DNA from: an uncultured Gammaproteobacteria bacterium
GTDB taxonomy: Bacteria > Patescibacteriota > Microgenomatia > UBA12405 > JAHJSD01
Length of the DNA stretch: 64,000 nucleotides
Direction: 5' to 3'
NCBI GenBank assembly: GCA_964498425.1
Contig: CAZCGQ010000001.1
Location: 99,063-163,062 of the forward strand
In this document: positions 1 through 14,882 of the stretch, piece after piece
Position numbering within the stretch: the stretch's first letter is position 1
Layout of the letters: each line of letters starts with the position of its first letter
Notes under the pieces: model-generated
The model's database searches: none
Told to the model about the DNA's origin: nothing
What the model saw: the letters and a program-made list of their open reading frames with translations, nothing else
Position numbers and translations under genes: made by a program

Positions 1-575
1 GAATTTAATTGACTAGACGAAGTAATTTGCAAATTGGGAAGGTTTCGAAAGGCTCGCCGAGCTGCTTCTAAGCCCTGCGGAAGGACCAAAAGATACTTAT
101 GATCATAACTATAATTGTCTTTGAACCACATTTGAAGGCTTTCCTGAGCAGACTTCGTTTTTCTTAACCGTTTAATTCCCTTAACTATCTTAATTCTTCC
201 TTCATTCTGCTGAGCAGAAAGAGCAGAAATTAAAGCCGCCGTTTTAACCTTTTTGGGCAGTTTCTTTTTATAGCCCTGGTTACCCTTTGGACCGTGGGCT
301 CGACCTCCACCGACAAAAATTGGAGCATATCTGTCTCCATGTCTAGCCTGTCCAGTCCCTTTTTGCGGCCATATTTTCTTCCTTGAACCAGACACTTCAC
401 CCCGGGTCTTTACCTTCGGGTATGCCTTTCTTTGATTACTCAAATATACCCTTACTGCTTGAGCAATCAAGGGAGGATTAACCTCTGCTCCAAAAATAAC
501 TGCTGGCAAAGCCATTTCGCTGACTTTTTCTCCAGCTTTGTCTAAAACAGATACTTTACCTGCCGCTTTAGCCAT
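1..575 (-). CDS. rplD: 50S ribosomal protein L4 (uL4), 3' end runs off window start
   Basis: Minus-strand translation from ATG (rc of 573-575) reads MAKAAGKVSVLDKAGEKVSEMALPAVIFGAEVNPPLIAQAVRVYLSNQRKAYPKVKTRGEVSGSRKKIWPQKGTGQARHGD..., a uL4 pattern. It sits immediately downstream of rplC in canonical S10-operon order. Confidence 0.85.
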   Translation of the reverse strand, partial: MAKAAGKVSVLDKAGEKVSEMALPAVIFGAEVNPPLIAQAVRVYLSNQRKAYPKVKTRGEVSGSRKKIWPQKGTGQARHGDRYAPIFVGGGRAHGPKGNQGYKKKLPKKVKTAALISALSAQQNEGRIKIVKGIKRLRKTKSAQESLQMWFKDNYSYDHKYLLVLPQGLEAARRAFRNLPNLQITSSSQLN

Positions 576-1182: not shown

Positions 1183-1194
1183 AATAAAAAATTA

Positions 1195-1246
1195 GGGCCG
1201 CAGCCCTAAATTATAGTCGGGCCTTAGGCCCATCCGCCTCTGGCGG
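1195..1246 (-). promoter_or_regulatory. Three consecutive GC-rich hairpins in the rpsJ-rplC spacer, the last followed by a U-run abutting the rplC start
   Basis: gggccgcagccc, gggccttaggccc, ccgcctctggcgg. The minus-strand transcript reads GGGCUGCGGCCC-UAAUUUUUUAUUAUG(rplC). Confidence 0.4.
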
Positions 1247-2932: not shown

Positions 2933-5029
2933 TTAAGTAGCACTATTTGCAACAATTTCCTCTTGTATATTTTGAGGTACTTGCTCATAGTGTGACGGCT
3001 CCATGTAAAAAGAGCCTCGACCTTGAGTTAAGCTTCGAATAATTGTCGCATAACCTCTAGCTTCAGCCAAAGGCACCAAGGCGTTTATCGTCTTAACCTT
3101 TCCCCGAGTTTCTGTACCTAGAATTTTTGCCCTCCTAGCTGAAAGATCACCAATAACTTGGCCTAAAAATTCATCCGGGGCATTAACCTCTAACTTCATA
3201 ATTGGCTCTAACAAAACCGGCTTAGCCATTTTAGCAGCTCGTTGGGCAGCCATCGACCCGGCAATTTTAAAAGCCATATCTGAAGAGTCAACTTCATGGT
3301 AACTTCCATCATAAACAACCGCCTTAACATCAATTAAAGGATATCCAGCAACAACACCCTTCTCCATTGCTTCAACTACACCCTTCTCAATCGCTGGAAT
3401 AAAATTATCCGGAATTGATGCTCCCTTGATTTCTGAATCAAACTCAAATCCCTCACCTCGTTCCCGTGGTTCAAGCCGCAAATAACAATGCCCGTATTGT
3501 CCACGACCACCACTTTGCCGAATATATTGGCCCTCTGCCTCAGCTGTATTGGTTATCGCTTCCCGATAAGCAATCTGGGGCTTACCTACCTTAACATTAA
3601 CACCAAATTCCCGCTTCATTCGGTCAACCAAAATTTCCAAGTGCAGTTCGCCCATACCGGAAATAATTGTCTGGCCAGTATCATGATCAACTTTGGTTTG
3701 AAAAGTCGGATCTTCTTCCATAAACTTATTCAAAGCAGCACTTAATTTTTCCTGGTCAGCCTTAGTTTCCGGCTCAATCGCTAAAGAAATGACCGGATCA
3801 GTAAATTCAATATTTTCGTAAACTATTGGTCGGGCCGGATCACACAAAGTATCCCCGGTAACCGAATCCTTCAACCCAATAGCTGCAACAATTTCTCCAG
3901 CAAAGCCTTGATCAATTCCCTCACGCTTGTCAGCGTGCATTAATAACAACCGACCAACTCGCTCGGTCCTGTTCTGGGAAGCGTTAAACACCTTGGAAGA
4001 ACTTTCTAAACTACCAGAGTAAATCCGCAAATAGGCTAGCTTACCAACATGCGGGTCGGTTTGAATCTTAAACAGCAGAGCTGAAAAAGGGTCCTTCTTT
4101 CCCGGCTTTCTTTCTTCTTTTTTATCTGTCTTCGGGTTAGTCCCTTCTGCTGGCGGTAAATCCAATGGTGAAGGAAGATAATCAACAATCGCATTTAAAA
4201 TTAACTGTACACTAACCGTGCGACTGTCAGCTCCCATAATCGGGAAAAATTCATTTTTAATAACTCCCTTACGAATTGCTTTCTTTAATTCCTCTTCGCC
4301 AACCTCTTCTCCTTCTAAAAACTTTTCCAAAATTGGCTCATCGACTTCTGCTACCGCTTCAACCAACCGCTCACGATACTTTTTTGCCTTTTCCATAAAT
4401 TCTTCTGGAATTTCAATCTCAGTCAATTCATTGTCCTCAACATCTTCATATTCATAAGCCTTCATTGCAATTAAATCAATTGCTCCCCGCAAATCATGGC
4501 CAAGACCTAATGGAAGTTGAATTGGAGAAGCATTAGCCCCTAACCTTTCCCGAATACTTTCTACTGAACCTTCAAAATCAGCCCCAACTAAATTCAACTT
4601 ATTAAAAACACAAATTCTGGGAACGTCATACTTGCCGGCCTGATGCCAGACTGTTTCCGACTGAGCTTCAACTCCGGTTCGACCATCAAAAACCATTACT
4701 GCTCCGTCCAAAACCCGCAAAGACCGTTCAACCTCAGCGGTAAAATCAATGTGACCAGGAGTATCAATAATGTTAATTCGATGGTCCTGCCAGAAAGTAG
4801 TTACTGCCGCCGAAACAATCGTAATTCCTCGTTCCCGCTCTTGATCCATCCAGTCGGTTACCGTTGATCCTTCATCAACAGACCCCAACTTATAAGTCCT
4901 GCCGGTTTCAAACAACATCCGTTCAGTAGTTGTCGTCTTGCCAGCATTAACGTGAGCAATAATTCCAATGTTCCTGATTAACTCCATCGGAACATCACGG
5001 TTTTCAGTTACTTGAATAGGTTGTGCCAT
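2933..5029 (-). CDS. fusA: Elongation factor G
   Basis: About 700 aa; AHVNAGKTT, DTPGHIDF, NKLN GTPase motifs. The ORF track starts at a TTG (5041); ATG at 5027-5029 (MAQPIQV...) is the more likely start. Confidence 0.95.
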   Translation of the reverse strand: MAQPIQVTENRDVPMELIRNIGIIAHVNAGKTTTTERMLFETGRTYKLGSVDEGSTVTDWMDQERERGITIVSAAVTTFWQDHRINIIDTPGHIDFTAEVERSLRVLDGAVMVFDGRTGVEAQSETVWHQAGKYDVPRICVFNKLNLVGADFEGSVESIRERLGANASPIQLPLGLGHDLRGAIDLIAMKAYEYEDVEDNELTEIEIPEEFMEKAKKYRERLVEAVAEVDEPILEKFLEGEEVGEEELKKAIRKGVIKNEFFPIMGADSRTVSVQLILNAIVDYLPSPLDLPPAEGTNPKTDKKEERKPGKKDPFSALLFKIQTDPHVGKLAYLRIYSGSLESSSKVFNASQNRTERVGRLLLMHADKREGIDQGFAGEIVAAIGLKDSVTGDTLCDPARPIVYENIEFTDPVISLAIEPETKADQEKLSAALNKFMEEDPTFQTKVDHDTGQTIISGMGELHLEILVDRMKREFGVNVKVGKPQIAYREAITNTAEAEGQYIRQSGGRGQYGHCYLRLEPRERGEGFEFDSEIKGASIPDNFIPAIEKGVVEAMEKGVVAGYPLIDVKAVVYDGSYHEVDSSDMAFKIAGSMAAQRAAKMAKPVLLEPIMKLEVNAPDEFLGQVIGDLSARRAKILGTETRGKVKTINALVPLAEARGYATIIRSLTQGRGSFYMEPSHYEQVPQNIQEEIVANSAT

Positions 5030-5041
5030 TGTTATTAACAA

Positions 5042-5093
5042 AAATACCCCCGCCTATCAAAGTCTACCTTAAATATCGACTTTTCGGCGGGAA
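5042..5093 (-). terminator. Hairpin plus U-tract (minus strand) between the PaaX-like gene and fusA
   Basis: Minus strand reads CCCGCC-GAAAAGUC...GACUUUGAUA-GGCGGG then GGUAUUUUUG; imperfect long stem followed by a U-run, directly upstream of the fusA ATG. Confidence 0.35.
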
Positions 5094-5109
5094 ATCACCC
5101 TTACGAGCA

Positions 5110-5139
5110 ATGTAGTCATTATAATATCACACCAACAAT
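5110..5139 (-). promoter_or_regulatory. Candidate sigma70-like promoter for fusA-tuf (minus strand)
   Basis: Minus strand TTGCTT-N17-TATTAT(AAT). Read by eye; untested. Confidence 0.25.
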
Positions 5140-5169
5140 TAAGAAGCAAACCTCCCCCTCCCTGCAAAT

Positions 5170-5213
5170 CTCCCCTTTTATTAAACGACGATCGTCCGTT
5201 AAGAAAAGTGATT
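5170..5213. repeat. Direct repeat copy A (about 44 bp, contains palindrome GACGATCGTC / CGATCG)
   Basis: ctccccttttattaaacgacgatcgtccgttaagaaaag is about 90 percent identical to copy B at 6037-6080. It overlaps the 3' end of the PaaX-like gene. Confidence 0.8.
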
Positions 5214-6011
5214 GGTGATTAATTTATTAAGCGCTTTAACTTTCGAAAATAATTCCTGACGAATATCTTTCCGCTCAAATAAATTACCCGGCACACCCCG
5301 ATCTTCTAATATTAATCCTGGGAACTCTAAGATTAGTTGTCTGGCTTGGCCCATATCTTTGTTTTTTAAAACGAAATCCGCCTTGCTGACAAACTTAATA
5401 AATTTTGCTTCTAATTCATGCGGCTTAAAAAGCCTATTAATTACCTCTTCATCTCTATCTCCGAACAAACTCTCAGCCCGAAATGCAAATAAATAAGTCT
5501 GCTCTTTTTCAAATAATCGCTGAACTTGTCTTTTAACATTGTTAATTGTTACCCAAACTGATCTCTGCCATTGGACAAAACCCAAATGCTTTAAATAATT
5601 TCTAATCTCACGCCTTCTATTTCGTTTTTCCTCTGGAATATCAAAAATAACAACTGTCCAAAATCCATCCCATTTTTGAGGTGATGCAAAAAACCGAAAT
5701 TTTAAATTAAAATAGTCTTGCCACCAATTTGAAGTTAAATTAACACTAATTTGTTCATCTTTCTCCCGCAAAACATCAAATTTTCTTAAGTTATAAAATG
5801 AGCTAACCTCATGGGCTTTCTTTTTTATGATTTTTTCCAGATAATCTCGAAAATTTTCAAAAGGATAACTTTGCAGGGGCTTCCTGCCAGGCAAACGAGC
5901 ATAATCATAACCAAAGGCAACATAATCAACACAGAGTAGAAAACCGAGGGCAATAACATCCTTAAATGAAACGGACGAAAAGAACCGAGATAATTTCGTA
6001 CTTTCAGCCAC
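5199..6011 (-). CDS. PaaX-family-like regulator with Cas2-like central domain
   Basis: N-terminal ALGFLLCVDYVAFGYDYARLPGRK resembles the PaaX N-terminus (LFGDYARPRGG). The central WTVVIFDIPEEKRNRRREIRNYLKHLGFVQWQRSVWV has a Cas2/PaaX-middle-domain pattern. The annotated start is GTG. The gene is inserted between rpsG and fusA. Confidence 0.5.
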   Translation of the reverse strand: MAESTKLSRFFSSVSFKDVIALGFLLCVDYVAFGYDYARLPGRKPLQSYPFENFRDYLEKIIKKKAHEVSSFYNLRKFDVLREKDEQISVNLTSNWWQDYFNLKFRFFASPQKWDGFWTVVIFDIPEEKRNRRREIRNYLKHLGFVQWQRSVWVTINNVKRQVQRLFEKEQTYLFAFRAESLFGDRDEEVINRLFKPHELEAKFIKFVSKADFVLKNKDMGQARQLILEFPGLILEDRGVPGNLFERKDIRQELFSKVKALNKLITNHFS

Positions 6012-6036
6012 TTAATTTAATAATACCAGAAAGATC

Positions 6037-6080
6037 TATCTTCCATCTCCCCTTTTCTTAAACGACGATCGTTCATTAAG
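6037..6080. repeat. Direct repeat copy B (about 44 bp, contains ACGATCGT)
   Basis: ctccccttttcttaaacgacgatcgttcattaagaaaa; lies between the methyltransferase pseudogene and the PaaX-like gene start. Confidence 0.8.
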
Positions 6081-6088
6081 AAAAAATA

Positions 6089-6819
6089 TTATTGGGATTT
6101 GAAAAGGTTTATCCAATTTAACAAACTAATTTCTGAGGGTTTGGCGTTTATTGAAACACCTAGCCCTTGGGTGATTTTGTTTAATCTATCAGCTGAATAA
6201 TAGCCTGACAAATTTTGTTTTAACCGTCTCCCCCCGCCAAAGCCTTGCCTAACAAATTGTTTATATTTATTTTTGTCCTTATCGTAAATCAAGGAATGCT
6301 TTCGCTGATCTACCCTAAATAATACTGCCTCAACTTGAGTAGCAGGCCTAAAGTCACTTGATTTAAAGTGGTGGATGATTAAAAACTTAAACCAAGGCCC
6401 GTGAATAGCTGAAAACTGGGTACTCTTTTTAGCTCCACCCCATCGGAGAGCCGACCTTTTTCGAACGACAACGCACATTACAACTTTCCTTGAACAGCAA
6501 ACGGGAAATTGCTAAATACTTTATATTGAGATTTAGGCAAAGGATACTTCAAAGCATCAAGATTAAATAAAACAACGTTGTCCGGAACTTTATCCAATAA
6601 ATTTTTGGTTAACTGCCTATCTTTTTCAATTGCAATAACCTGCCTGACTTTATCAGCTAATTTTAAAGTTATAATCCCCTGACCAGGACCGACCTCAATT
6701 ACCGTATCCTTTTTTCCAATAGAAGACTTCTCAACCAGCTTTTCTACTAACTGGCGATTGTGAAGAAAATTTTGCGATAGGTGCCGCCTTGCTTTGTACA
6801 CAGCGACCACCCCAAACAA
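6089..6819 (-). pseudogene. rRNA adenine N6-dimethyltransferase (KsgA/Erm family), disrupted by an in-frame stop, a roughly 15-aa deletion and a frameshift near 6478
   Basis: The N-terminal 113-aa ORF has HLSQNFLHNRQLVEKL, VIEVGPGQGIITL (motif I) and VFSNFPF (NLPY-like motif IV). The C-terminal 129-aa ORF is in another frame and aligns to the KsgA C-terminus (SDFRPATQVEAVLFRV and FVRQGFGGGRRLKQNL match PPSAFTPPPKVDSAVVRL and AFNQRRKTIRNSL). A TAA stop lies directly after FAVQGKL. Confidence 0.55.
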
Positions 6820-6873
6820 ATGTAATCATAATCACGATTATTGTAACATAAATGGGAAAAAGTTAAAACTATT

Positions 6874-7371
6874 TTACCAGCGGAGGTGGGAAAAGGCTTT
6901 ATTAGCTTCAGCGGCACGTTCTACTTGTTCTTTCTTAGCATAAGCACCGCCCGTTTGATTAAAAGCATCAATAATTTCGGCAGCTAATTTTTCACCATAA
7001 GTATGATATTGAGAATTTGGTCGATCTCGAGCAGAAGTAATTATCCACCGAATTGCCAAAGAATCTTTGCGGGGACCACGAACCGGCATCGGAACTTGGT
7101 AAGCCGCACCACCAACTCGACGTGACCGAACTTCCTTGTCCGGCCGGATATTATTCAATGCCTGCCGAAAAATAGTCATTGGCTCGGTTTTTTCTTGCTT
7201 CTTAATTAATTCAAAAGCTTTATAAACCTGTTTACGGGCAGCCGTTTTCTTCCCATCCTTCATTGCCCGATTAATCAGCTTCGTCACCAGACGACTGTTG
7301 TAAACTGGATCTTTCTTTACCTCTCGTGGTTTTACCGCTCCTTTTCTGGGCATGTTAAGCTTCCTCCTCAA
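6874..7371 (-). CDS. rpsG: 30S ribosomal protein S7 (uS7)
   Basis: 165 aa with typical S7 sequence; str-operon position after rpsL. Confidence 0.95.
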
Positions 7372-7819
7372 CTGAAGTTTCTAATTCTTCGCCGCCAGTA
7401 TCACCAGTAACACCACTCTTTGGCGTTCCATATTTACTTCGGCTGGTTTGCCGACCAACTACGCCAGAAGAATCGGCGACTCCTCGAACAACGTGATATT
7501 TAATACCCGGTAGGTCCCGTACTCGACCACCGCGGATCAAAACAATAGCGTGCTCAGCTAAATTATGACCTTCACCCGGAATATAGGCAGTAACTTCACG
7601 CTGATTAGACAGTCTTACCTTGGCTACTTTCCGCAAAGCCGAGTGCGGTTTCTTCGGCGGCATAGTTTTAACCTGAGTAACAACCCCCCTCTTCTGAGGC
7701 GACTGAACCTTAATCAACCGCCCTTTAAGGTTGTTTAACTTCCCGTGCAAAGCCGGGCTTTTTGATTTTTTCTTTGGTTGTTTTCGGCCCTTCCGGACCA
7801 ATTGATTAATTGTTGGCAT
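7355..7819 (-). CDS. rpsL: 30S ribosomal protein S12 (uS12) with an unusual acidic C-terminal extension
   Basis: [12 protein letters not shown]...; conserved PKKPNSALRK-like and RGGRVKDLPG regions. It ends ...[27 protein letters not shown], about 18 aa beyond the usual C-terminus, and overlaps the rpsG start by 17 nt. Confidence 0.93.
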
Positions 7820-7856
7820 AATTTAATACCTTCGTGCTTCGTATTTTAACATATTA

Positions 7857-10800
7857 TTATTCTAGCTTCGCTCTTTCTGGAGTAATCGGAATCTTTCTTC
7901 CGACAATAACGTTCTCCTTAAGACCAATCATCGGATCAACCTTACCTAGAATTGAGGCTTCAGTTAAAACATTAGTTGTATGCTGGAAAGAAGCAGCTGA
8001 CAACCAAGAATAAGTGTTCAACGCTGCCTTAATTAGTCCCAAAATTACCCGTTTACCCTTAGCCGGTTTCTTTCCCTCATCCTTAAGTTCCTGATTAATT
8101 TCCTGATAAATCGGTTGTTCAACATATTCGCCGATCAAGAAATCAGAATCCCCCGGACGAGTGATCTTAACCCGACTGCTCATCTCCCGAATTAATGTTT
8201 CAAAATGCTTATCGTGAATAGTAATTCCCTGTGATTCATATACTCTTTGAACTTCTCTAAGTAAAAGAAGCTGAGCATCTCTTAAGCCGCAAACTTCTAA
8301 AACCTGTTCTATATCCATTGACCCAGATGCTAATTGCGTTCCTTTTTCAACTGTTTCTCCATTCTTGACCATTAGGGTCGAAGTTAGCGGAACTCGATAA
8401 GAAACACTCTTTTTCTTCTTGCCCTTGCCGCCGACCAAACTAATCTGGTAGCCCTGCTCTGTTTCTGAAACCTTAATCTTACCGTCAATTTCGGCAATCG
8501 GAGCCAAGTTTTTCGGCGTTCTAACCTCAAGTAATTCTTCTACCCTAGGCAAACCCTGAGTAACGTCTTTACCAACAACTCCACCAGCATGCTTCGTTCT
8601 CATTGTTAACTGCGTTCCCGGTTCACCAATTGACTGAGCAGCGACAACACCAACCGGTGTACCAATATCTACTGCTTTCTTATTAGACATATCCCAACCG
8701 TAGCAGGTAGAACAAACTCCATACCTTGTCCGGCAGTAAAGCGGTGACCGAACAGCCGCCTCTTTGACTTCTTTATCAGCAATTAATTGCGCATCTTCCT
8801 CACTGACCAAATGCCCCTTCTTAAATAAAGTCTTCCCAGTTTCCGGGTCAACAACCTTGTCTGCCAAATGTCGGCCAAGGATTCTTTTTGCAAAAGATTT
8901 TTGCCTCTCTCCACTATTTTTGATAACTAGTTTTCTAGTTGTTCCACAATCTTCCTCTCTTACCAAACTGCTGTGAGCTACGTCAACCAACCGACGAGTT
9001 AAATATCCAGCATCAGCGGTCTTCAGTGCCGTATCAGTTAATCCCTTTCGGGAACCTCTGGCTCCGGTAACATATTCAAAAACAGACAAACCCTCCCTAA
9101 AGTTAGATTTAGTCGGCAAAGGAACAATCCGGCCCATCGGGTCAACAACCAATCCCCGCATTCCAGAAACCTGCTTAATTTGGTCTCGGGATACTCGGCT
9201 GATACCAGCGTCACTAATCATTTTTATAGGATCATCAGACTCGAATCTATCCCAAGTTAAATCAGCAATATTTTCAGTTGTTTCAATCCACATATTTTGG
9301 GTTAACTCATCACGTTCACTTTGAGTTATTAAACCTTCACGGTAATTTTCTTCAATCCCACTTGCTCTTTGGTTAGCTTTCTTAATAATCTTGTCCTTAT
9401 CCGGCAAAAGCTTACAATCAAAAATTGACGGGGAAATGCCAGAATAAGTAGCCCCATAAAATCCTAAATCCTTAAGTCCGTCAATTAAATTAACAACCAC
9501 TTCAGAATCAAAATTTTTGTAAGCTGTATTGATTAAATTTTTAATTTGACCAGACTCGACTGCTTCGTTAATGAAACCCATTTCCTCCGGAATAAGCTGA
9601 TTAAACATCAACCGACCAATTGTCGTCAAAACTAACTCTTTACCCAACTTAATCCCAATCAGCTCCCGCATTTCTACCTTTCGCTGACGCCAGGCCATCA
9701 TTGCTTCTTCCTGATCAGCAAACAGGTGAACTTCCTTGAGCGCTTTTTCCTTATCTTCAAATAACTCTTTTTCTTCTTGACGCAGAGAGGTAATGAAATA
9801 ACAGCCAACAACCATTTCCTTAGTCGGGACATTAATTGGCCGTCCACTTGCTGGTTTAAGCAAGTTATTACCCGGCATCATTTTTTCCATTGCTTCCTTT
9901 TGAGCTTTCTTGGACAAAGGCAAATGAACACCCATTTCGTCACCATCAAAGTCAGCATTAAAACCGGAACAAATACAAGCTGGAATTCTAATCGCTAATC
10001 CGTCAACCAAAGTTGGTTTAAAAGCCTGAATCGACAACTTATGAAGCGTCGGTGCCCGGTTAAGCAAAACAACTTTATTTTTAACAACTTCTTCTAAAAT
10101 GTCATATACTTCCGGTGGTTTATGGTCAAGCAGGTTCTTGGCACTGCGTACATTCGGGGCTAATCCTCTTAAAATCATTTCCCGTAGAATAAACGGTCGG
10201 AACAATTCCAAAGCCATTTCCCGAGGCAGACCACATTCATTCAGCTTTAATTTTGGTCCAGATACAATTACGCTTCGACCAGAATAGTCTACCCGCTTAC
10301 CCAACAAATTACGTCGGAATCGGCCTTTTTTGCCCTTAAGTAAATCTGATAATGATCTCGGCGGCCGCTTGGAATAACGCTGACGTCTACTCTTAGTAGC
10401 GTCAATGAGCATATCAACTGACTCCTGAAGCATCCGCTTTTCATTACGCAAAATAATTTCCGGGGCTCCTAACTCCATCAATCTCTTTAATCGATTATTT
10501 CGGTTAATAACTCGTCGATAAAGATCATTTAAGTCGCTAGTAGCAAATCGGCCTCCAGTTAACTGGACCATCGGCCGTAATTCCGGCGGAATAACTGGTA
10601 ATGACCGCAAAATCATCCAGGCGGGTTCAATATCAGCCTTAATCATCCCGTTAATAACTCGAATCCTTCTCATTAATTTCTTCTTTTTCTGCTTACTTCG
10701 AGTTTCTTGAAGCTGTTGACGTAAATCTCTAATTGTACTGGTTAAGGAAATATCCTTAAGGACCTTAAGAATTGCCTCCGCCCCAACCTCAACTTCAAAA

Positions 10801-14803: not shown

Positions 14804-14882
14804 ATGTTTACCCATACCAAAAAAAGACACGGACCTTAGTCCGTTGTCTTTGTCGTGGGCCTATTATAACACACCTGATTTA

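What the first reader, a model, noticed from the sequence alone, without database searches (positions are those of the whole stretch)
5042..6819. str operon interrupted between rpsG and fusA by a degraded KsgA/Erm-type methyltransferase and a PaaX-like gene bracketed by 44-bp direct repeats
rpsL-rpsG-fusA-tuf is normally contiguous. Here about 1.8 kb is inserted. It holds a KsgA/Erm-family rRNA adenine dimethyltransferase broken by a stop, a deletion of the NLPY-downstream helix and a frameshift. It also holds a 270-aa PaaX-like protein with a Cas2-like middle domain. The PaaX-like gene is flanked by two about 90 percent identical direct repeats (5170-5213 and 6037-6080). Each contains the palindrome GACGATCGTC (CGATCG core), a plausible dimeric-regulator operator or a recombination footprint. 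A hairpin plus U-tract and a possible new promoter precede fusA. This looks like an insertion into one of the most conserved operons in bacteria.
Basis: seen in the sequence. Interest (0 to 1): 0.65.

Follow-up and report, generated by a model that had tools for sequence, protein, structure and literature searches.

The report
Broken erm-like gene plus PaaX-like regulator
In this candidate-phyla-radiation bacterium the gap between the ribosomal protein S7 gene (rpsG) and the EF-G gene (fusA) is a common parking place for accessory genes; here it holds a recently broken Erm-like rRNA methyltransferase gene and an intact PaaX-like regulator flanked by two copies of its probable binding site, which is real but fairly ordinary.

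Summary
About 1.84 kb lies between rpsG (6874-7353) and fusA (true ATG at 5029).

- **Methyltransferase:** it is Erm-like rather than KsgA. It carries one lesion, a 37-bp deletion, which accounts for the stop, the frameshift and the missing helix together.
- **PaaX-like gene:** a 270-aa PaaX_M/Cas2-like protein, intact.
- **Repeats:** two copies of a 40-nt repeat, at 5168-5207 and 6045-6084. Each copy is itself a CGATCG-centred palindrome.

The interpretation needs revision.

- **Not a recent insertion:** three sister lineages have rpsG-erm-PAL-PaaXL (PAL = the palindrome, PaaXL = the PaaX-like gene), one read through to fusA, all with an intact erm. A fourth has erm plus one palindrome and no PaaX-like gene.
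- **Not an exceptional site:** the rpsG-fusA gap is at least 450 bp in about half of 71 Microgenomates species.
- **Not a new promoter:** the fusA promoter and the hairpin/U-tract leader are conserved in relatives that lack the insert.

The PaaX-like gene has a long palindrome 22-56 nt upstream of its start in all four divergent lineages found. It has a second copy at its 3' end in three of them. The most likely role is operator sites for an autoregulated repressor. An RNA hairpin or a recombination site remain possible.

Erm-like genes in these bacteria are already reported. Interest is modest.

The parts
6874..7353 (-). rpsG (ribosomal protein S7, 159 aa), upstream boundary of the accessory slot
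   Evidence: Pfam Ribosomal_S7 7e-54. The 159-aa gene call in the identical contig L001.
6478..6801 (-). Erm-like rRNA adenine N6-methyltransferase pseudogene, N-terminal fragment. Probable GTG start at 6801, SAM motif VGPGQG, motif IV SNFPF, TAA stop at 6478-6480.
   Evidence: RrnaAD 5.6e-23. NCBIfam Erm23S_rRNA_broad 101 bits against ksgA 91. Aligns to intact homologues through ...AVQGKL.
6479..6483 (-). Junction of the 37-nt deletion. It removes the 13 codons FRKFIQADNPPxx that follow motif IV and shifts the frame.
   Evidence: DNA alignment with L002, L004 and L005. Protein alignment A1. BLAST break L002 6318/6361 against window 6484/6478.
6089..6478 (-). Erm-like pseudogene, C-terminal fragment (129 codons, frame +1 relative to the N-terminal fragment)
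   Evidence: RrnaAD positions 136-259. Erm(38) 7f8a match. 69.5% identity to P0001.
6045..6084 (.). Palindromic repeat, copy upstream of the PaaX-like gene (palindrome 6052-6084, centre CGATCG). It begins 4 nt after the erm stop and ends 41 nt before the PaaX-like start codon.
   Evidence: A homologous palindrome lies upstream of every PaaX-like orthologue found.
6020..6028 (-). Extended -10-like element TGGTATTAT, 8 nt upstream of the PaaX-like GTG start. It is conserved in L002, L090 and L089.
   Evidence: Read from the sequence. Promoter function is inferred, not shown.
5199..6011 (-). PaaX-like gene (270 aa): predicted N-terminal helix-helix-beta-hairpin, Cas2-like PaaX_M domain, C-terminal helices. 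Intact and under purifying selection.
   Evidence: PaaX_M 4.6e-21. dN/dS 0.089 against L002. Foldseek top hits 3kfw and E. coli PaaX 8a39, on a low-confidence model. 4719 representative relatives at E<=0.001.
5168..5207 (.). Palindromic repeat, copy at the 3' end of the PaaX-like gene (palindrome 5175-5208). It overlaps the last codons and the stop. Its centre lies about 45 nt upstream of the centre of the fusA -35 hexamer.
5121..5149 (-). fusA promoter: TTGCTT (5144-5149), 17-nt spacer, TATTAT (5121-5126) preceded by TGA. Conserved across eight lineages.
   Evidence: Alignment of fusA upstream regions. The consensus scanner did not call it because the -35 matches only 3 of 6 positions. Function is inferred from conservation.
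5030..5115 (-). fusA leader: small GUAA-loop hairpin, then the CCCGCC...GGCGGG hairpin (5049-5091) followed by a U-tract (5040-5046), ending about 10 nt before the ATG.
   Evidence: Fold -26 kcal/mol, z -2.1. Basal stem invariant and apical stem with 2 compensatory pairs in 5 lineages. Present in relatives without the insert. No Rfam match.
2933..5029 (-). fusA (EF-G, 698 aa), downstream boundary
   Evidence: Pfam EF-G domains. 97% identity to L002 EF-G.

Best explanation
In this lineage of Microgenomates (Patescibacteria) the rpsG-fusA spacer is a transcription-unit boundary. fusA has its own conserved promoter and structured leader, so the spacer tolerates accessory genes.

The window's genus carries two such genes.

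1. **An Erm-family rRNA adenine N6-methyltransferase gene.** It was inherited at this site and is intact in at least four relatives. In this genome a single 37-bp deletion has recently inactivated it. The deletion removes the helix after motif IV and shifts the frame. This looks like a loss in progress, in keeping with the patchy distribution of the gene among relatives.

2. **A PaaX-family gene (predicted wHTH, Cas2-like domain, helical C-terminus) bracketed by two copies of a 34-40-bp palindrome.** The palindromes are most likely its operators. The dimeric protein would bind the copy next to its own extended -10 promoter and autoregulate. The second copy lies about 45 bp upstream of the fusA -35 and may give it some influence on fusA-tuf transcription.

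The gene plus one palindrome copy is present or absent between sister species (solo palindrome in L097). So it was gained or lost by recombination at the palindrome.

**Shown:** gene content, the lesion, the repeats, and their distribution in relatives. **Inferred:** operator function, promoter function, methylation target, direction of gain versus loss.
For: **Slot and boundary**
- Gaps of 8 bp to about 6 kb in 71 species representatives, 37 of them at least 450 bp. Contents are heterogeneous: IS200-like Y1 transposases, DUF559 endonucleases, toxin-antitoxin pairs and others.
- The fusA promoter and leader are conserved with or without an insert.

**erm**
- Intact 249-260-aa homologues at 60-69% identity.
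- They lie at the same site in L002/L003, L090, L097, L004 and L005.
- One 37-nt deletion.
- An identical sequence in a separately assembled Logan contig.
- dN/dS of the window copy against the others is 0.10-0.15, the same as between intact copies (0.13-0.19). Inactivation is therefore recent.
- The best NCBIfam hit is Erm (186-196 bits) over KsgA (136-143).

**PaaX-like gene and palindromes**
- PaaX_M domain.
- The profile finds thousands of proteins of about 250 aa, and many of the matches extend into the predicted wHTH region.
- PaaX and Rv0674 are the top fold hits.
- A long palindrome lies 22-56 nt upstream of the start codon in all four divergent lineages: window group, L089, L088 and L086, the last outside the str locus. 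A second copy lies at the 3' end in three of them.
- Such palindromes are rare: 69 in 1.24 Mb.
- The 22-bp core TTAAAyGACGATCGTCrTTTAA is conserved between the window group and L089, although their proteins are only 58% identical.
- The two copies within one genome match each other better than they match copies in other genomes.
- E. coli PaaX autoregulates and binds a roughly 39-bp inverted repeat, TGATTC-N27-GAATCA (PMC9493321).
- As RNA, the window's palindromes fold weakly (-8 and -10.6 kcal/mol, z -0.24 and -1.86) and have no U-tract.
Against: - Solo CGATCG-centred palindromes lie upstream of the fusA promoter in L006, L007, L004 and L097. None of these has a PaaX-like gene in the DNA available.
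- In L006, L007 and L086 the palindromes are perfect or near-perfect over 16-20 nt per arm and form very stable hairpins (z -5 to -8). That is more than a wHTH dimer would constrain.
- Each copy sits directly after a stop codon, as a 3'-end element would.
- The N-terminal wHTH is not detected by Pfam, and the structure model is poor there (pLDDT below 50 for residues 1-72).
- No binding or expression data exist.
- The intact orthologues fall below NCBI's Erm cut-off (212 bits), so the methylation target is unproven.
- The Logan contig may derive from the same reads as the window, so it is not fully independent.
Confidence: 0.6

Rival explanations
1. The palindromes act as RNA (or single-strand DNA) hairpins. 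They would be 3'-end, terminator, insulator or processing elements that close the upstream transcription unit just before the next promoter. Their association with the PaaX-like gene would be incidental, or a by-product of duplication.
For: - Each copy starts within 0-16 nt of a stop codon: erm, the PaaX-like gene, rpsG in L007, erm in L004 and L097.
- Arms differ between lineages while pairing is kept and the CGAUCG tip is conserved.
- L006, L007 and L086 hairpins are very stable (z -8.1, -5.5, -8.4).
- The L086 hairpin is followed by CAUUUUUGC.
- Solo copies exist without a neighbouring PaaX-like gene.
Against: - The window's own copies fold no better than shuffled sequence and lack a U-tract. 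Terminator-like sites elsewhere in the window are short GC-rich stems with U-runs.
- This does not explain why a palindrome sits upstream of every PaaX-like gene, including the one at the recA/tRNA-Pro locus.
- It does not explain why the primary sequence of the 22-bp core is conserved between lineages whose neighbouring DNA has diverged.
- No Rfam family matches.
Confidence: 0.25
2. Palindrome, PaaX-like gene and palindrome form a small mobile or invertible cassette. The palindrome would be a recombination site, with crossover at the symmetric CGATCG. The gene would be inserted, excised or flipped at it, by a recombinase in trans or by the Cas2-like protein itself.
For: - Filled site (window, L002, L090) against an empty site with one palindrome of the same sequence in a sister species whose EF-G is 96% identical (L097).
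- Opposite gene orientation between the same flanks in L088 and L089. This is expected from recombination between two self-complementary repeats.
- A copy at an unrelated locus next to tRNA-Pro.
- The asymmetry of the palindrome is flipped in both window copies relative to L002, L090 and L097.
- IS200-like Y1 transposases, which act on hairpins, occur in the same gap in 4 other species.
Against: - No recombinase was identified next to any copy.
- PaaX_M proteins are known as regulators, not recombinases.
- No relative was found in viral contigs.
- Only about 7 full-length close relatives exist in a very large database, so there is no sign of spread.
- Plain homologous recombination between two 40-nt repeats explains presence/absence and inversion without any dedicated machinery.
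- The arms do not fit the integron attC core GTTRRRY.
Confidence: 0.12
3. The methyltransferase is not really broken. Either the deletion is an assembly artefact, or the two halves are translated through the TAATG overlap and work as a split enzyme.
For: - Both halves keep long open frames with homologue-like dN/dS.
- The stop and start overlap (TAATG) would allow translational coupling.
- The window is probably from a metagenome-assembled genome.
Against: - A 37-nt loss is not a typical sequencing error. It is reproduced exactly in the Logan assembly.
- The lost 13 residues are present in all eight homologues aligned, and the consensus over them is FRKFIxADNPP. By alignment with ErmC' they correspond to the helix after the catalytic N-x-P-[YF] motif. 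Losing them should break the Rossmann core (inference).
- Low dN/dS is equally expected if inactivation is recent.
Confidence: 0.05
4. The methyltransferase is the housekeeping 16S rRNA dimethyltransferase KsgA/RsmA placed in a ribosomal operon, not a resistance-type Erm.
For: - The Pfam family is shared by the two.
- TIGR00755 ksgA gives 136-143 bits for the intact orthologues.
- The location among translation genes fits.
Against: - Scores are below the ksgA cut-off (171) and lower than the Erm model in every case.
- The best structural matches by sequence include ErmC' and Erm(38).
- Distribution among close relatives is patchy and the gene is pseudogenised here, which is unlikely for a near-universal gene.
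- More distant homologues sit beside MFS pumps, MarR/MerR regulators and an APH-like kinase.
Confidence: 0.05

Closest known systems
Erm 23S rRNA (adenine2058-N6) methyltransferases (ErmC', Erm(38), Erm(42); NCBIfam NF000499)
   Same: - Same RrnaAD fold family and a similar length of about 250 aa.
- SAM-binding GxGxG motif and motif IV N-x-P-[YF] (here SNFPF).
- Erm is the best-scoring model for the intact orthologues.
- Erm-like hits are already reported as the commonest resistance-type methyltransferase in CPR genomes (PMC8651080; bioRxiv 10.64898/2026.07.13.738296).
   Different: - The orthologues score 186-196 bits, below the 212-bit cut-off.
- No leader-peptide attenuator of the kind that controls inducible erm genes was seen upstream.
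- The window's copy is a pseudogene.
- The methylation target and any resistance phenotype are untested.
PaaX, the phenylacetyl-CoA-responsive repressor of E. coli and Pseudomonas (PDB 8A39, 3L09; TIGR02277)
   Same: - Central Cas2-like PaaX_M domain.
- Overall three-part architecture suggested by secondary structure and by the top Foldseek hits.
- PaaX represses its own promoter and binds a wide inverted repeat of about 39 bp (PMC9493321). This is similar in span to the 34-40-bp palindromes here.
   Different: - 36.6 bits against a 264.6-bit equivalog cut-off.
- Pfam's PaaX N-terminal and PaaX_C domains are not detected.
- No paa catabolic genes are nearby.
- The palindrome is continuous and CGATCG-centred, not two hexamers separated by 27 nt.
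- The gene is bracketed by two copies.
- The ligand is unknown.
Cas2 (CRISPR adaptation protein)
   Same: The ferredoxin-like core (residues about 118-168) matches Cas2 models weakly. The Asp of the (Y/F)DI motif is kept (FDIPE, invariant in 7 homologues).
   Different: - No CRISPR-like array in the 64 kb by tandem-repeat search. No Cas1 family appeared among the top 25 of 72 Pfam families shown for the other ORFs (an incomplete check).
- The protein is three times the size of Cas2, with flanking domains.
- The match is at domain level only.
Genomic insertion hotspots between conserved core genes
   Same: Two highly conserved flanking genes (rpsG, fusA) enclose lineage-variable cargo: resistance-like genes, IS200-like transposases, toxin-antitoxin pairs and DUF559 endonucleases.
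   Different: The hotspot lies inside what is a single str operon in model bacteria. That is possible here because fusA has its own promoter and leader.

Membership tests
Erm (23S rRNA A2058 N6-methyltransferase) | RrnaAD methyltransferase fold with SAM motif I and catalytic motif IV N-x-P-[YF] | tested here: met
   PF00398 on both fragments (5.6e-23 and 5.9e-09). VGPGQG and SNFPF are present and aligned with homologues.
Erm (23S rRNA A2058 N6-methyltransferase) | Score above the curated NCBIfam Erm23S_rRNA_broad cut-off (212 bits) | tested here: not met
   Intact orthologues P0001, P0004 and P0005 score 193, 196 and 186 bits. Window fragments score 101 and 70 bits. Erm is nevertheless the top model in every case.
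Erm (23S rRNA A2058 N6-methyltransferase) | Uninterrupted reading frame encoding the full catalytic domain | tested here: not met
   A 37-nt deletion removes 13 codons and shifts the frame. The same sequence is in contig L001.
Erm (23S rRNA A2058 N6-methyltransferase) | Methylation of 23S A2058 and a macrolide-lincosamide-streptogramin B resistance phenotype | not testable with these tools
   Needs expression of the intact orthologue in a sensitive host, plus primer extension or mass spectrometry.
KsgA/RsmA (16S rRNA A1518/A1519 dimethyltransferase) | Score above the TIGR00755 cut-off (171 bits), and near-universal single-copy presence | tested here: not met
   136-143 bits for the orthologues. 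The gene is absent from close relatives L006, L007, L009, L088 and L089 at this locus and is pseudogenised here. Whole genomes could not be searched.
PaaX-family transcriptional regulator | Central PaaX_M (Cas2-like) domain | tested here: met
   PF20803, 75.2 bits against a 24-bit cut-off, residues 112-189.
PaaX-family transcriptional regulator | Equivalog-level match to PaaX (TIGR02277, cut-off 264.55), and linkage to paa catabolic genes | tested here: not met
   36.6 bits. The neighbours are rpsG, erm, fusA or recA, and no paa genes.
PaaX-family transcriptional regulator | [quoted passage not shown] | tested here: inconclusive
   No Pfam hit. The AF2 model has helix 52-62, helix 70-77 and a beta-hairpin 81-90, but pLDDT is below 50 for residues 1-72 and about 50 for 73-90. 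Foldseek aligns 209-219 columns to 3kfw and 8a39 with TM about 0.3. Many distant relatives match from profile position about 47 onwards.
PaaX-family transcriptional regulator | Binds an inverted-repeat operator at its own promoter (autoregulation) | not testable with these tools
   Sequence evidence only. A palindrome lies 22-56 nt upstream of the start in 4 of 4 lineages.
Cas2 / CRISPR adaptation module | Small stand-alone Cas2 next to cas1 and a CRISPR array | tested here: not met
   The protein is 270 aa and multidomain. Tandem Repeats Finder finds no CRISPR-like array in the window. PADLOC gives only weak Cas2 domain hits.
Intrinsic (rho-independent) terminator | Stable GC-rich stem-loop followed by a U-tract | tested here: not met
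   For the two palindromes in the window: -8 and -10.6 kcal/mol, z -0.24 and -1.86, no U-tract, and not called by the scanner. The fusA leader hairpin does fit this pattern.
Integron gene cassette (attC) | Imperfect palindrome with RYYYAAC / GTTRRRY core sites, and an intI integrase with attI nearby | tested here: inconclusive
   By eye the arms read TCTTAAC / GTTTAAT or GTTTAAG, which miss the consensus at one position each. No integrase search of the full window was completed: only the top 25 of 72 Pfam families were shown.

The most novel reading that the evidence does not exclude
Palindrome, PaaX-like gene and palindrome form a self-contained recombining unit. A PaaX/Cas2-like protein would recognise the CGATCG-centred palindromes that flank its own gene. 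The unit could then be excised, re-inserted or inverted at the palindrome just upstream of the fusA promoter. That would make it a small mobile or phase-variable regulator of EF-G/EF-Tu expression in genome-reduced bacteria.
Probability: 0.1. Interest if true: 0.65.

Novelty: new member of a known kind. Interest (0 to 1): 0.3.

Why it matters
The main value is as a correction. What looked like a striking disruption of a near-universal operon is a lineage-typical accessory slot, and the 'three lesions' are one deletion.

Two modest points of wider interest remain.
- An Erm-like gene, a class widely counted as resistance genes in CPR genomes, is caught here in the act of being lost, with intact orthologues available for functional testing.
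- A small PaaX-like family shows a tight association between each gene and lineage-specific flanking palindromes placed next to the fusA promoter. This gives a directly testable protein-site pair in organisms where almost no transcription factor has a known target.

Tried and rejected
- **Rfam on 4800-8000 at E<=1:** no match for the palindromes or the fusA leader.
- **PADLOC on the PaaX-like and Erm-like proteins:** only weak Cas2 domain hits and an unrelated methyltransferase hit.
- **Viral contigs scan for PaaX-like relatives:** none.
- **Metagenome scan:** only 3 loci, two of them redundant with loci already held.
- **Relics of erm or the PaaX-like gene in the 'empty' gaps of L006, L007, L009 and L088** (tblastn, E up to 5): nothing credible.
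- **The extra 105 nt between the palindrome and the promoter in L097:** no similarity to the other loci.
- **Are the 250-aa ORFs next to erm in L004 and L005 distant PaaX-like proteins?** No similarity and no Pfam or NCBIfam hit.
- **AlphaFold model of the PaaX-like protein:** mean pLDDT only 59.8. I used the fold matches as weak support only.
- **Mini-ORF MEDRSFWYY / VKTFWYY between the palindrome and the PaaX-like start, considered as a leader peptide:** rejected. The Shine-Dalgarno spacing is implausible, and the conservation is explained by the overlapping extended -10 element.
- **Generic genome-wide terminator, considered for the repeats:** rejected for this window. There are two copies only, and only 5 CGATCG sites in 64 kb.
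- **GC content of the insert:** 0.34-0.37 against 0.41-0.45 in the flanks. This is too weak to argue for foreign origin, because the flanks are highly expressed genes.
- **A second RrnaAD gene in the window:** none. The rest of the genome could not be searched.
- **First gap analysis:** it used a mis-framed EF-G query. I discarded it and redid it.


Full report
**What is at the locus**

All relevant genes are on the minus strand: rpoB, rpoC, rpsL (7355-7819), rpsG (6874-7353), two RrnaAD-family fragments (6478-6819 and 6089-6478), a 270-aa ORF (5199-6011), fusA, tuf. Homologue alignments put the fusA start at ATG 5029 rather than the TTG at 5041. The rpsG stop and the fusA start are therefore 1,844 nt apart. 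A contig assembled separately by Logan from run SRR15425351 (L001) is 100% identical to the window over 10,426 nt.

**The methyltransferase**

The N-terminal fragment covers Pfam RrnaAD positions 3-110 and the C-terminal fragment covers 136-259. By sequence the fragments match ErmC', Erm(38) and archaeal/bacterial KsgA structures.

A database search with the two fragments joined found intact proteins of 249-260 aa at 60-69% identity (P0001-P0005). Aligned with them, the window reads correctly through ...VFSNFPFAVQGKL. It then lacks 13 residues (consensus FRKFIxADNPPxx) and resumes at MCVVVRKRSALRWGG in another frame. The DNA alignment shows one gap of 37 nt relative to L002, L004 and L005.

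NCBIfam ranks the intact orthologues as Erm (186-196 bits, cut-off 212) ahead of KsgA (136-143 bits, cut-off 171). I call the gene Erm-like, not a confirmed Erm.

Pairwise dN/dS of the window's copy against the others is 0.10-0.15. Intact copies compared with each other give 0.13-0.19. The gene was therefore under purifying selection for most of its history, and the deletion is recent. No second RrnaAD gene lies in the window.

**Relatives**

Exact look-ups of the homologues gave their genomic contexts.

| Locus | Arrangement |
|---|---|
| L002 / L003 (about 85% DNA identity to the window, EF-G 97%) | rpsL, rpsG, intact erm, PaaX-like, fusA, tuf |
| L090 | rpsG, intact erm, palindrome, PaaX-like (contig ends inside the gene) |
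| L097 (EF-G 96%) | rpsG, intact erm, one palindrome of the same sequence, about 105 nt, fusA promoter, fusA; no PaaX-like gene |
| L004 (EF-G about 80%) | erm with a conserved 250-aa unknown protein on the opposite strand |
| L005 (EF-G about 80%) | erm with the same 250-aa unknown protein, an APH(2'')/Mph-like kinase, a NUDIX protein and another methyltransferase |

I then anchored on S7 and fetched 80 species-representative loci. Many are labelled Microgenomates-group (Woesebacteria, Shapirobacteria, Beckwithbacteria and others), though many record titles carry other taxon labels. Among the 71 with a measurable rpsG-fusA distance the gap runs from 8 bp to about 6 kb. It is at least 450 bp in 37 of them and at least 1 kb in 23. 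The cargo is heterogeneous: IS200-like Y1 transposases and DUF559/Vsr-like endonucleases (4 each), toxin-antitoxin pairs, TGT, an ABC transporter, peptidases and others.

The closest species representatives, L006, L007 and L009, have gaps of 338, 492 and 283 nt with neither gene. By S7 identity there are two clades.
- **Inner clade (at least 82%):** window, L002, L090, L006, L007, L008, L088, L089.
- **Outer clade (about 70%):** L009, L004, L005.

erm occurs in both clades but patchily. This fits inheritance at this site with repeated loss, of which the window's pseudogene is an example. Exchange between relatives is not excluded.

More distant Erm-like homologues (40-45% identity) sit elsewhere, beside MFS pumps and, in two of three loci, MarR/MerR regulators.

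**fusA promoter and leader**

Upstream of fusA every member of the clade, with or without an insert, shares three features:
- (G)TTTGCTTCT, a spacer, then TG(G/A)TATTATA;
- a leader with a small GUAA-loop hairpin;
- a larger hairpin ending in a U-tract just before the start codon.

In the window this hairpin (5049-5091) folds at -26 kcal/mol (z -2.1). In five lineages the basal stem is invariant and the apical stem shows two compensatory changes. Rfam has no match. The 'new promoter' and hairpin are therefore ancestral. fusA-tuf is an independent transcription unit here, which explains why the spacer tolerates cargo.

**The repeats**

The best in-register pair is 5168-5207 against 6045-6084 (40 nt, 93%). 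Each copy is a 33-34-nt imperfect palindrome centred on CGATCG. There are only two copies in 64 kb, where none is expected by chance. The window contains only five CGATCG sites in all.

In L002 the same two copies sit at the same two places.

I scanned 1.24 Mb (the window plus loci L002 and L004-L085) for loopless palindromes and found 69. The six centred on CGATCG all lie in the rpsG-fusA gap of the window's clade: window, L002 (two copies), L004, L006, L007. The second window copy scores just below the threshold.

The arms differ between lineages while symmetry and the centre are kept:
- L006: CCTCCAACTACTA-CGATCG-TAGTAGTTAGGGGAGG
- L007: AAATTTATCTATG-CGATCG-CATAGATAAATTT

**The PaaX-like gene and its palindromes**

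The protein has a PaaX_M domain (75 bits) and a weak Cas2 match. Only about seven full-length close relatives exist. A profile search finds 4,719 representative proteins at E<=0.001, mostly 230-270 aa. Many of these match from profile position about 47 onwards, which includes the predicted wHTH region.

The AlphaFold model is poor (mean pLDDT 59.8; N-terminal residues 1-72 below 50). Its secondary structure there is helix, helix, beta-hairpin. The top Foldseek hits are Rv0674 (3kfw) and E. coli PaaX (8a39), followed by Cas2 proteins. dN/dS against L002 is 0.089, so the gene is functional.

Contexts of the orthologues:

| Locus | Protein identity to window | Arrangement |
|---|---|---|
| L089 | 58% | rpsG, then the PaaX-like gene on the opposite strand, then a palindrome, then the fusA promoter and fusA. 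A second palindrome copy overlaps the last 13 codons of the PaaX-like gene. |
| L088 | about 50% | rpsG, palindrome, inverted PaaX-like gene, palindrome. The repeat sequence is different and centred on CGGCCG. |
| L086 / L091 | 43% | Next to recA and tRNA-Pro. A perfect 36-nt CGATCG-centred palindrome ends 22 nt before the ATG. No second copy. |

In all four lineages a long palindrome lies 22-56 nt upstream of the gene. In three of them a second copy lies at its 3' end.

The 22-bp core TTAAAyGACGATCGTCrTTTAA is shared by the window group and L089. An extended -10-like TGGTATTAT follows the upstream copy in the window, L002, L090 and L089.

According to a review, E. coli PaaX represses its own promoter and binds TGATTC-N27-GAATCA, a span of about 39 bp (PMC9493321).

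**Interpretation**

I favour operators for an autoregulated PaaX-family regulator, for four reasons.
- The palindrome is tied to the gene wherever the gene sits.
- Its primary sequence is conserved between orthologues that are only 58% identical as proteins.
- The two copies within a genome co-vary.
- The window's copies are weak as RNA hairpins (-8 and -10.6 kcal/mol, z -0.24 and -1.86) and have no U-tract.

The second copy is centred about 35-45 nt upstream of the fusA -35 hexamer in the window and L002. In L089 the single shared palindrome lies between the divergent PaaX-like and fusA promoters. An effect on fusA-tuf is therefore conceivable but unproven.

Evidence against this reading:
- Solo palindromes persist in L006, L007, L004 and L097 with no PaaX-like gene in the DNA I could see.
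- Some are perfect over 16-20 nt per arm and fold very stably (z -5 to -8).
- Each follows a stop codon.

An RNA 3'-end or insulator hairpin therefore remains a serious rival.

The filled and empty sites (window/L002/L090 against L097) and the opposite orientation in L088/L089 fit recombination between two self-complementary repeats. This could be ordinary homologous recombination, or, less likely, a dedicated mobile or invertible cassette. I found no adjacent recombinase and no viral or wide distribution.

**Comparison with what is known**

Erm-like hits are already described as the most prevalent resistance-type methyltransferases in CPR genomes, without a demonstrated phenotype (PMC8651080; bioRxiv 10.64898/2026.07.13.738296). 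PaaX-like proteins with a Cas2-like middle domain are a large known family (Pfam PF20803). Insertion hotspots between conserved genes are well known.

What is specific here:
- the hotspot lies between rpsG and fusA;
- an erm-like gene is caught in decay;
- each PaaX-like gene is paired with flanking, lineage-specific palindromes.

**Verdict**

The reading as an unusual, recent insertion with a new promoter is not supported. The operator idea is the best-supported but unproven mechanism. I rate novelty as a new member of known kinds and interest as modest (0.3).

Noticed in passing
window 5030-5115 (minus strand); also L002, L004-L007, L009, L089, L097 upstream of fusA: A conserved structured fusA leader: a GUAA-loop hairpin, then a larger hairpin with a U-tract ending about 10-20 nt before the start codon. 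The outer clade has an extra terminator-like hairpin. It looks like an attenuator or autoregulatory leader and has no Rfam match.
   Followed up: partly
L006-L085, region between rpsG and fusA: The rpsG-fusA spacer is an insertion hotspot across the Microgenomates-group loci fetched (8 bp to about 6 kb). Cargo includes IS200-like Y1 transposases (4 loci), DUF559/REase_MTES_1575 endonucleases (4), BrnT/CopG and other toxin-antitoxin pairs, TGT and an ABC transporter.
   Followed up: partly
L004 5161-5910 (-) and L005 5173-5919 (-): A conserved 250-aa protein (69% identical between the two loci) is transcribed divergently from erm. It has no Pfam or NCBIfam hit. Its ...PKIIDFTAYYD stretch resembles the IDF motif of APH-type kinases. 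In L005 it sits beside an APH(2'')/Mph-like kinase and a NUDIX protein, so the island looks like a cluster of resistance-type genes aimed at ribosome-targeting antibiotics.
   Followed up: partly
window 5175-5208 and 6052-6084 against L002 6754-6791 / 7629-7666, L090 1148-1181, L097 942-979: The small asymmetry inside the palindrome is flipped in both window copies relative to both L002 copies and to L090 and L097 (window AACGGA-CGATCG-TCGTTT; others AAACGA-CGATCG-TCCGTT). The two copies in a genome therefore evolve in concert. A single inversion between the two centres does not reproduce the pattern, and I have no explanation for it.
   Followed up: partly
L004 4315-4967: A different palindrome, TAGGGACAATCCTAGGATTGTCCCTA (CCTAGG centre), occurs three times. 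A 55-nt direct repeat also occurs three times (two copies identical). Both lie in the non-coding stretch just after rpsG.
   Followed up: no
L006 about 8545-8590, L007 about 1490-1540, L088 about 60-105 (reverse strand): A conserved element of about 45 nt (GGTTGAGAAACATCGTTTACACTCCTAGGTCAAA-like, with a small hairpin and a GAGAAA loop) lies in the rpsG-fusA gap of three relatives. It is absent from the window. L007 also carries a MITE-like insert (GTCATTTCGACCGAGCGTAGCGAGTGGAGAAATCTC...) between the palindrome and the fusA promoter.
   Followed up: no
window, whole 64 kb: GATC is under-represented (139 observed against 219 expected from base composition). A complete type I restriction-modification set (HsdR, HsdM and HsdS domains) is encoded among the ORFs between 14.9 and 64 kb.
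   Followed up: no
window 1192-1209 (minus strand) and 14829-14844 (minus strand): Canonical GC-rich hairpins with U-tracts lie just upstream of rplC and of rpoB. They are possible leader attenuators for these ribosomal and RNA polymerase genes, and they show what classical terminator-like structures look like in this genome.
   Followed up: no
L010 3191-3916 (minus strand): A more distant Erm-like gene (44% identity) lies upstream of rpsL/rpsG in another Microgenomates genome, that is, near the str genes but at a different junction. In the same genome a glycosyltransferase occupies the rpsG-fusA gap.
   Followed up: no
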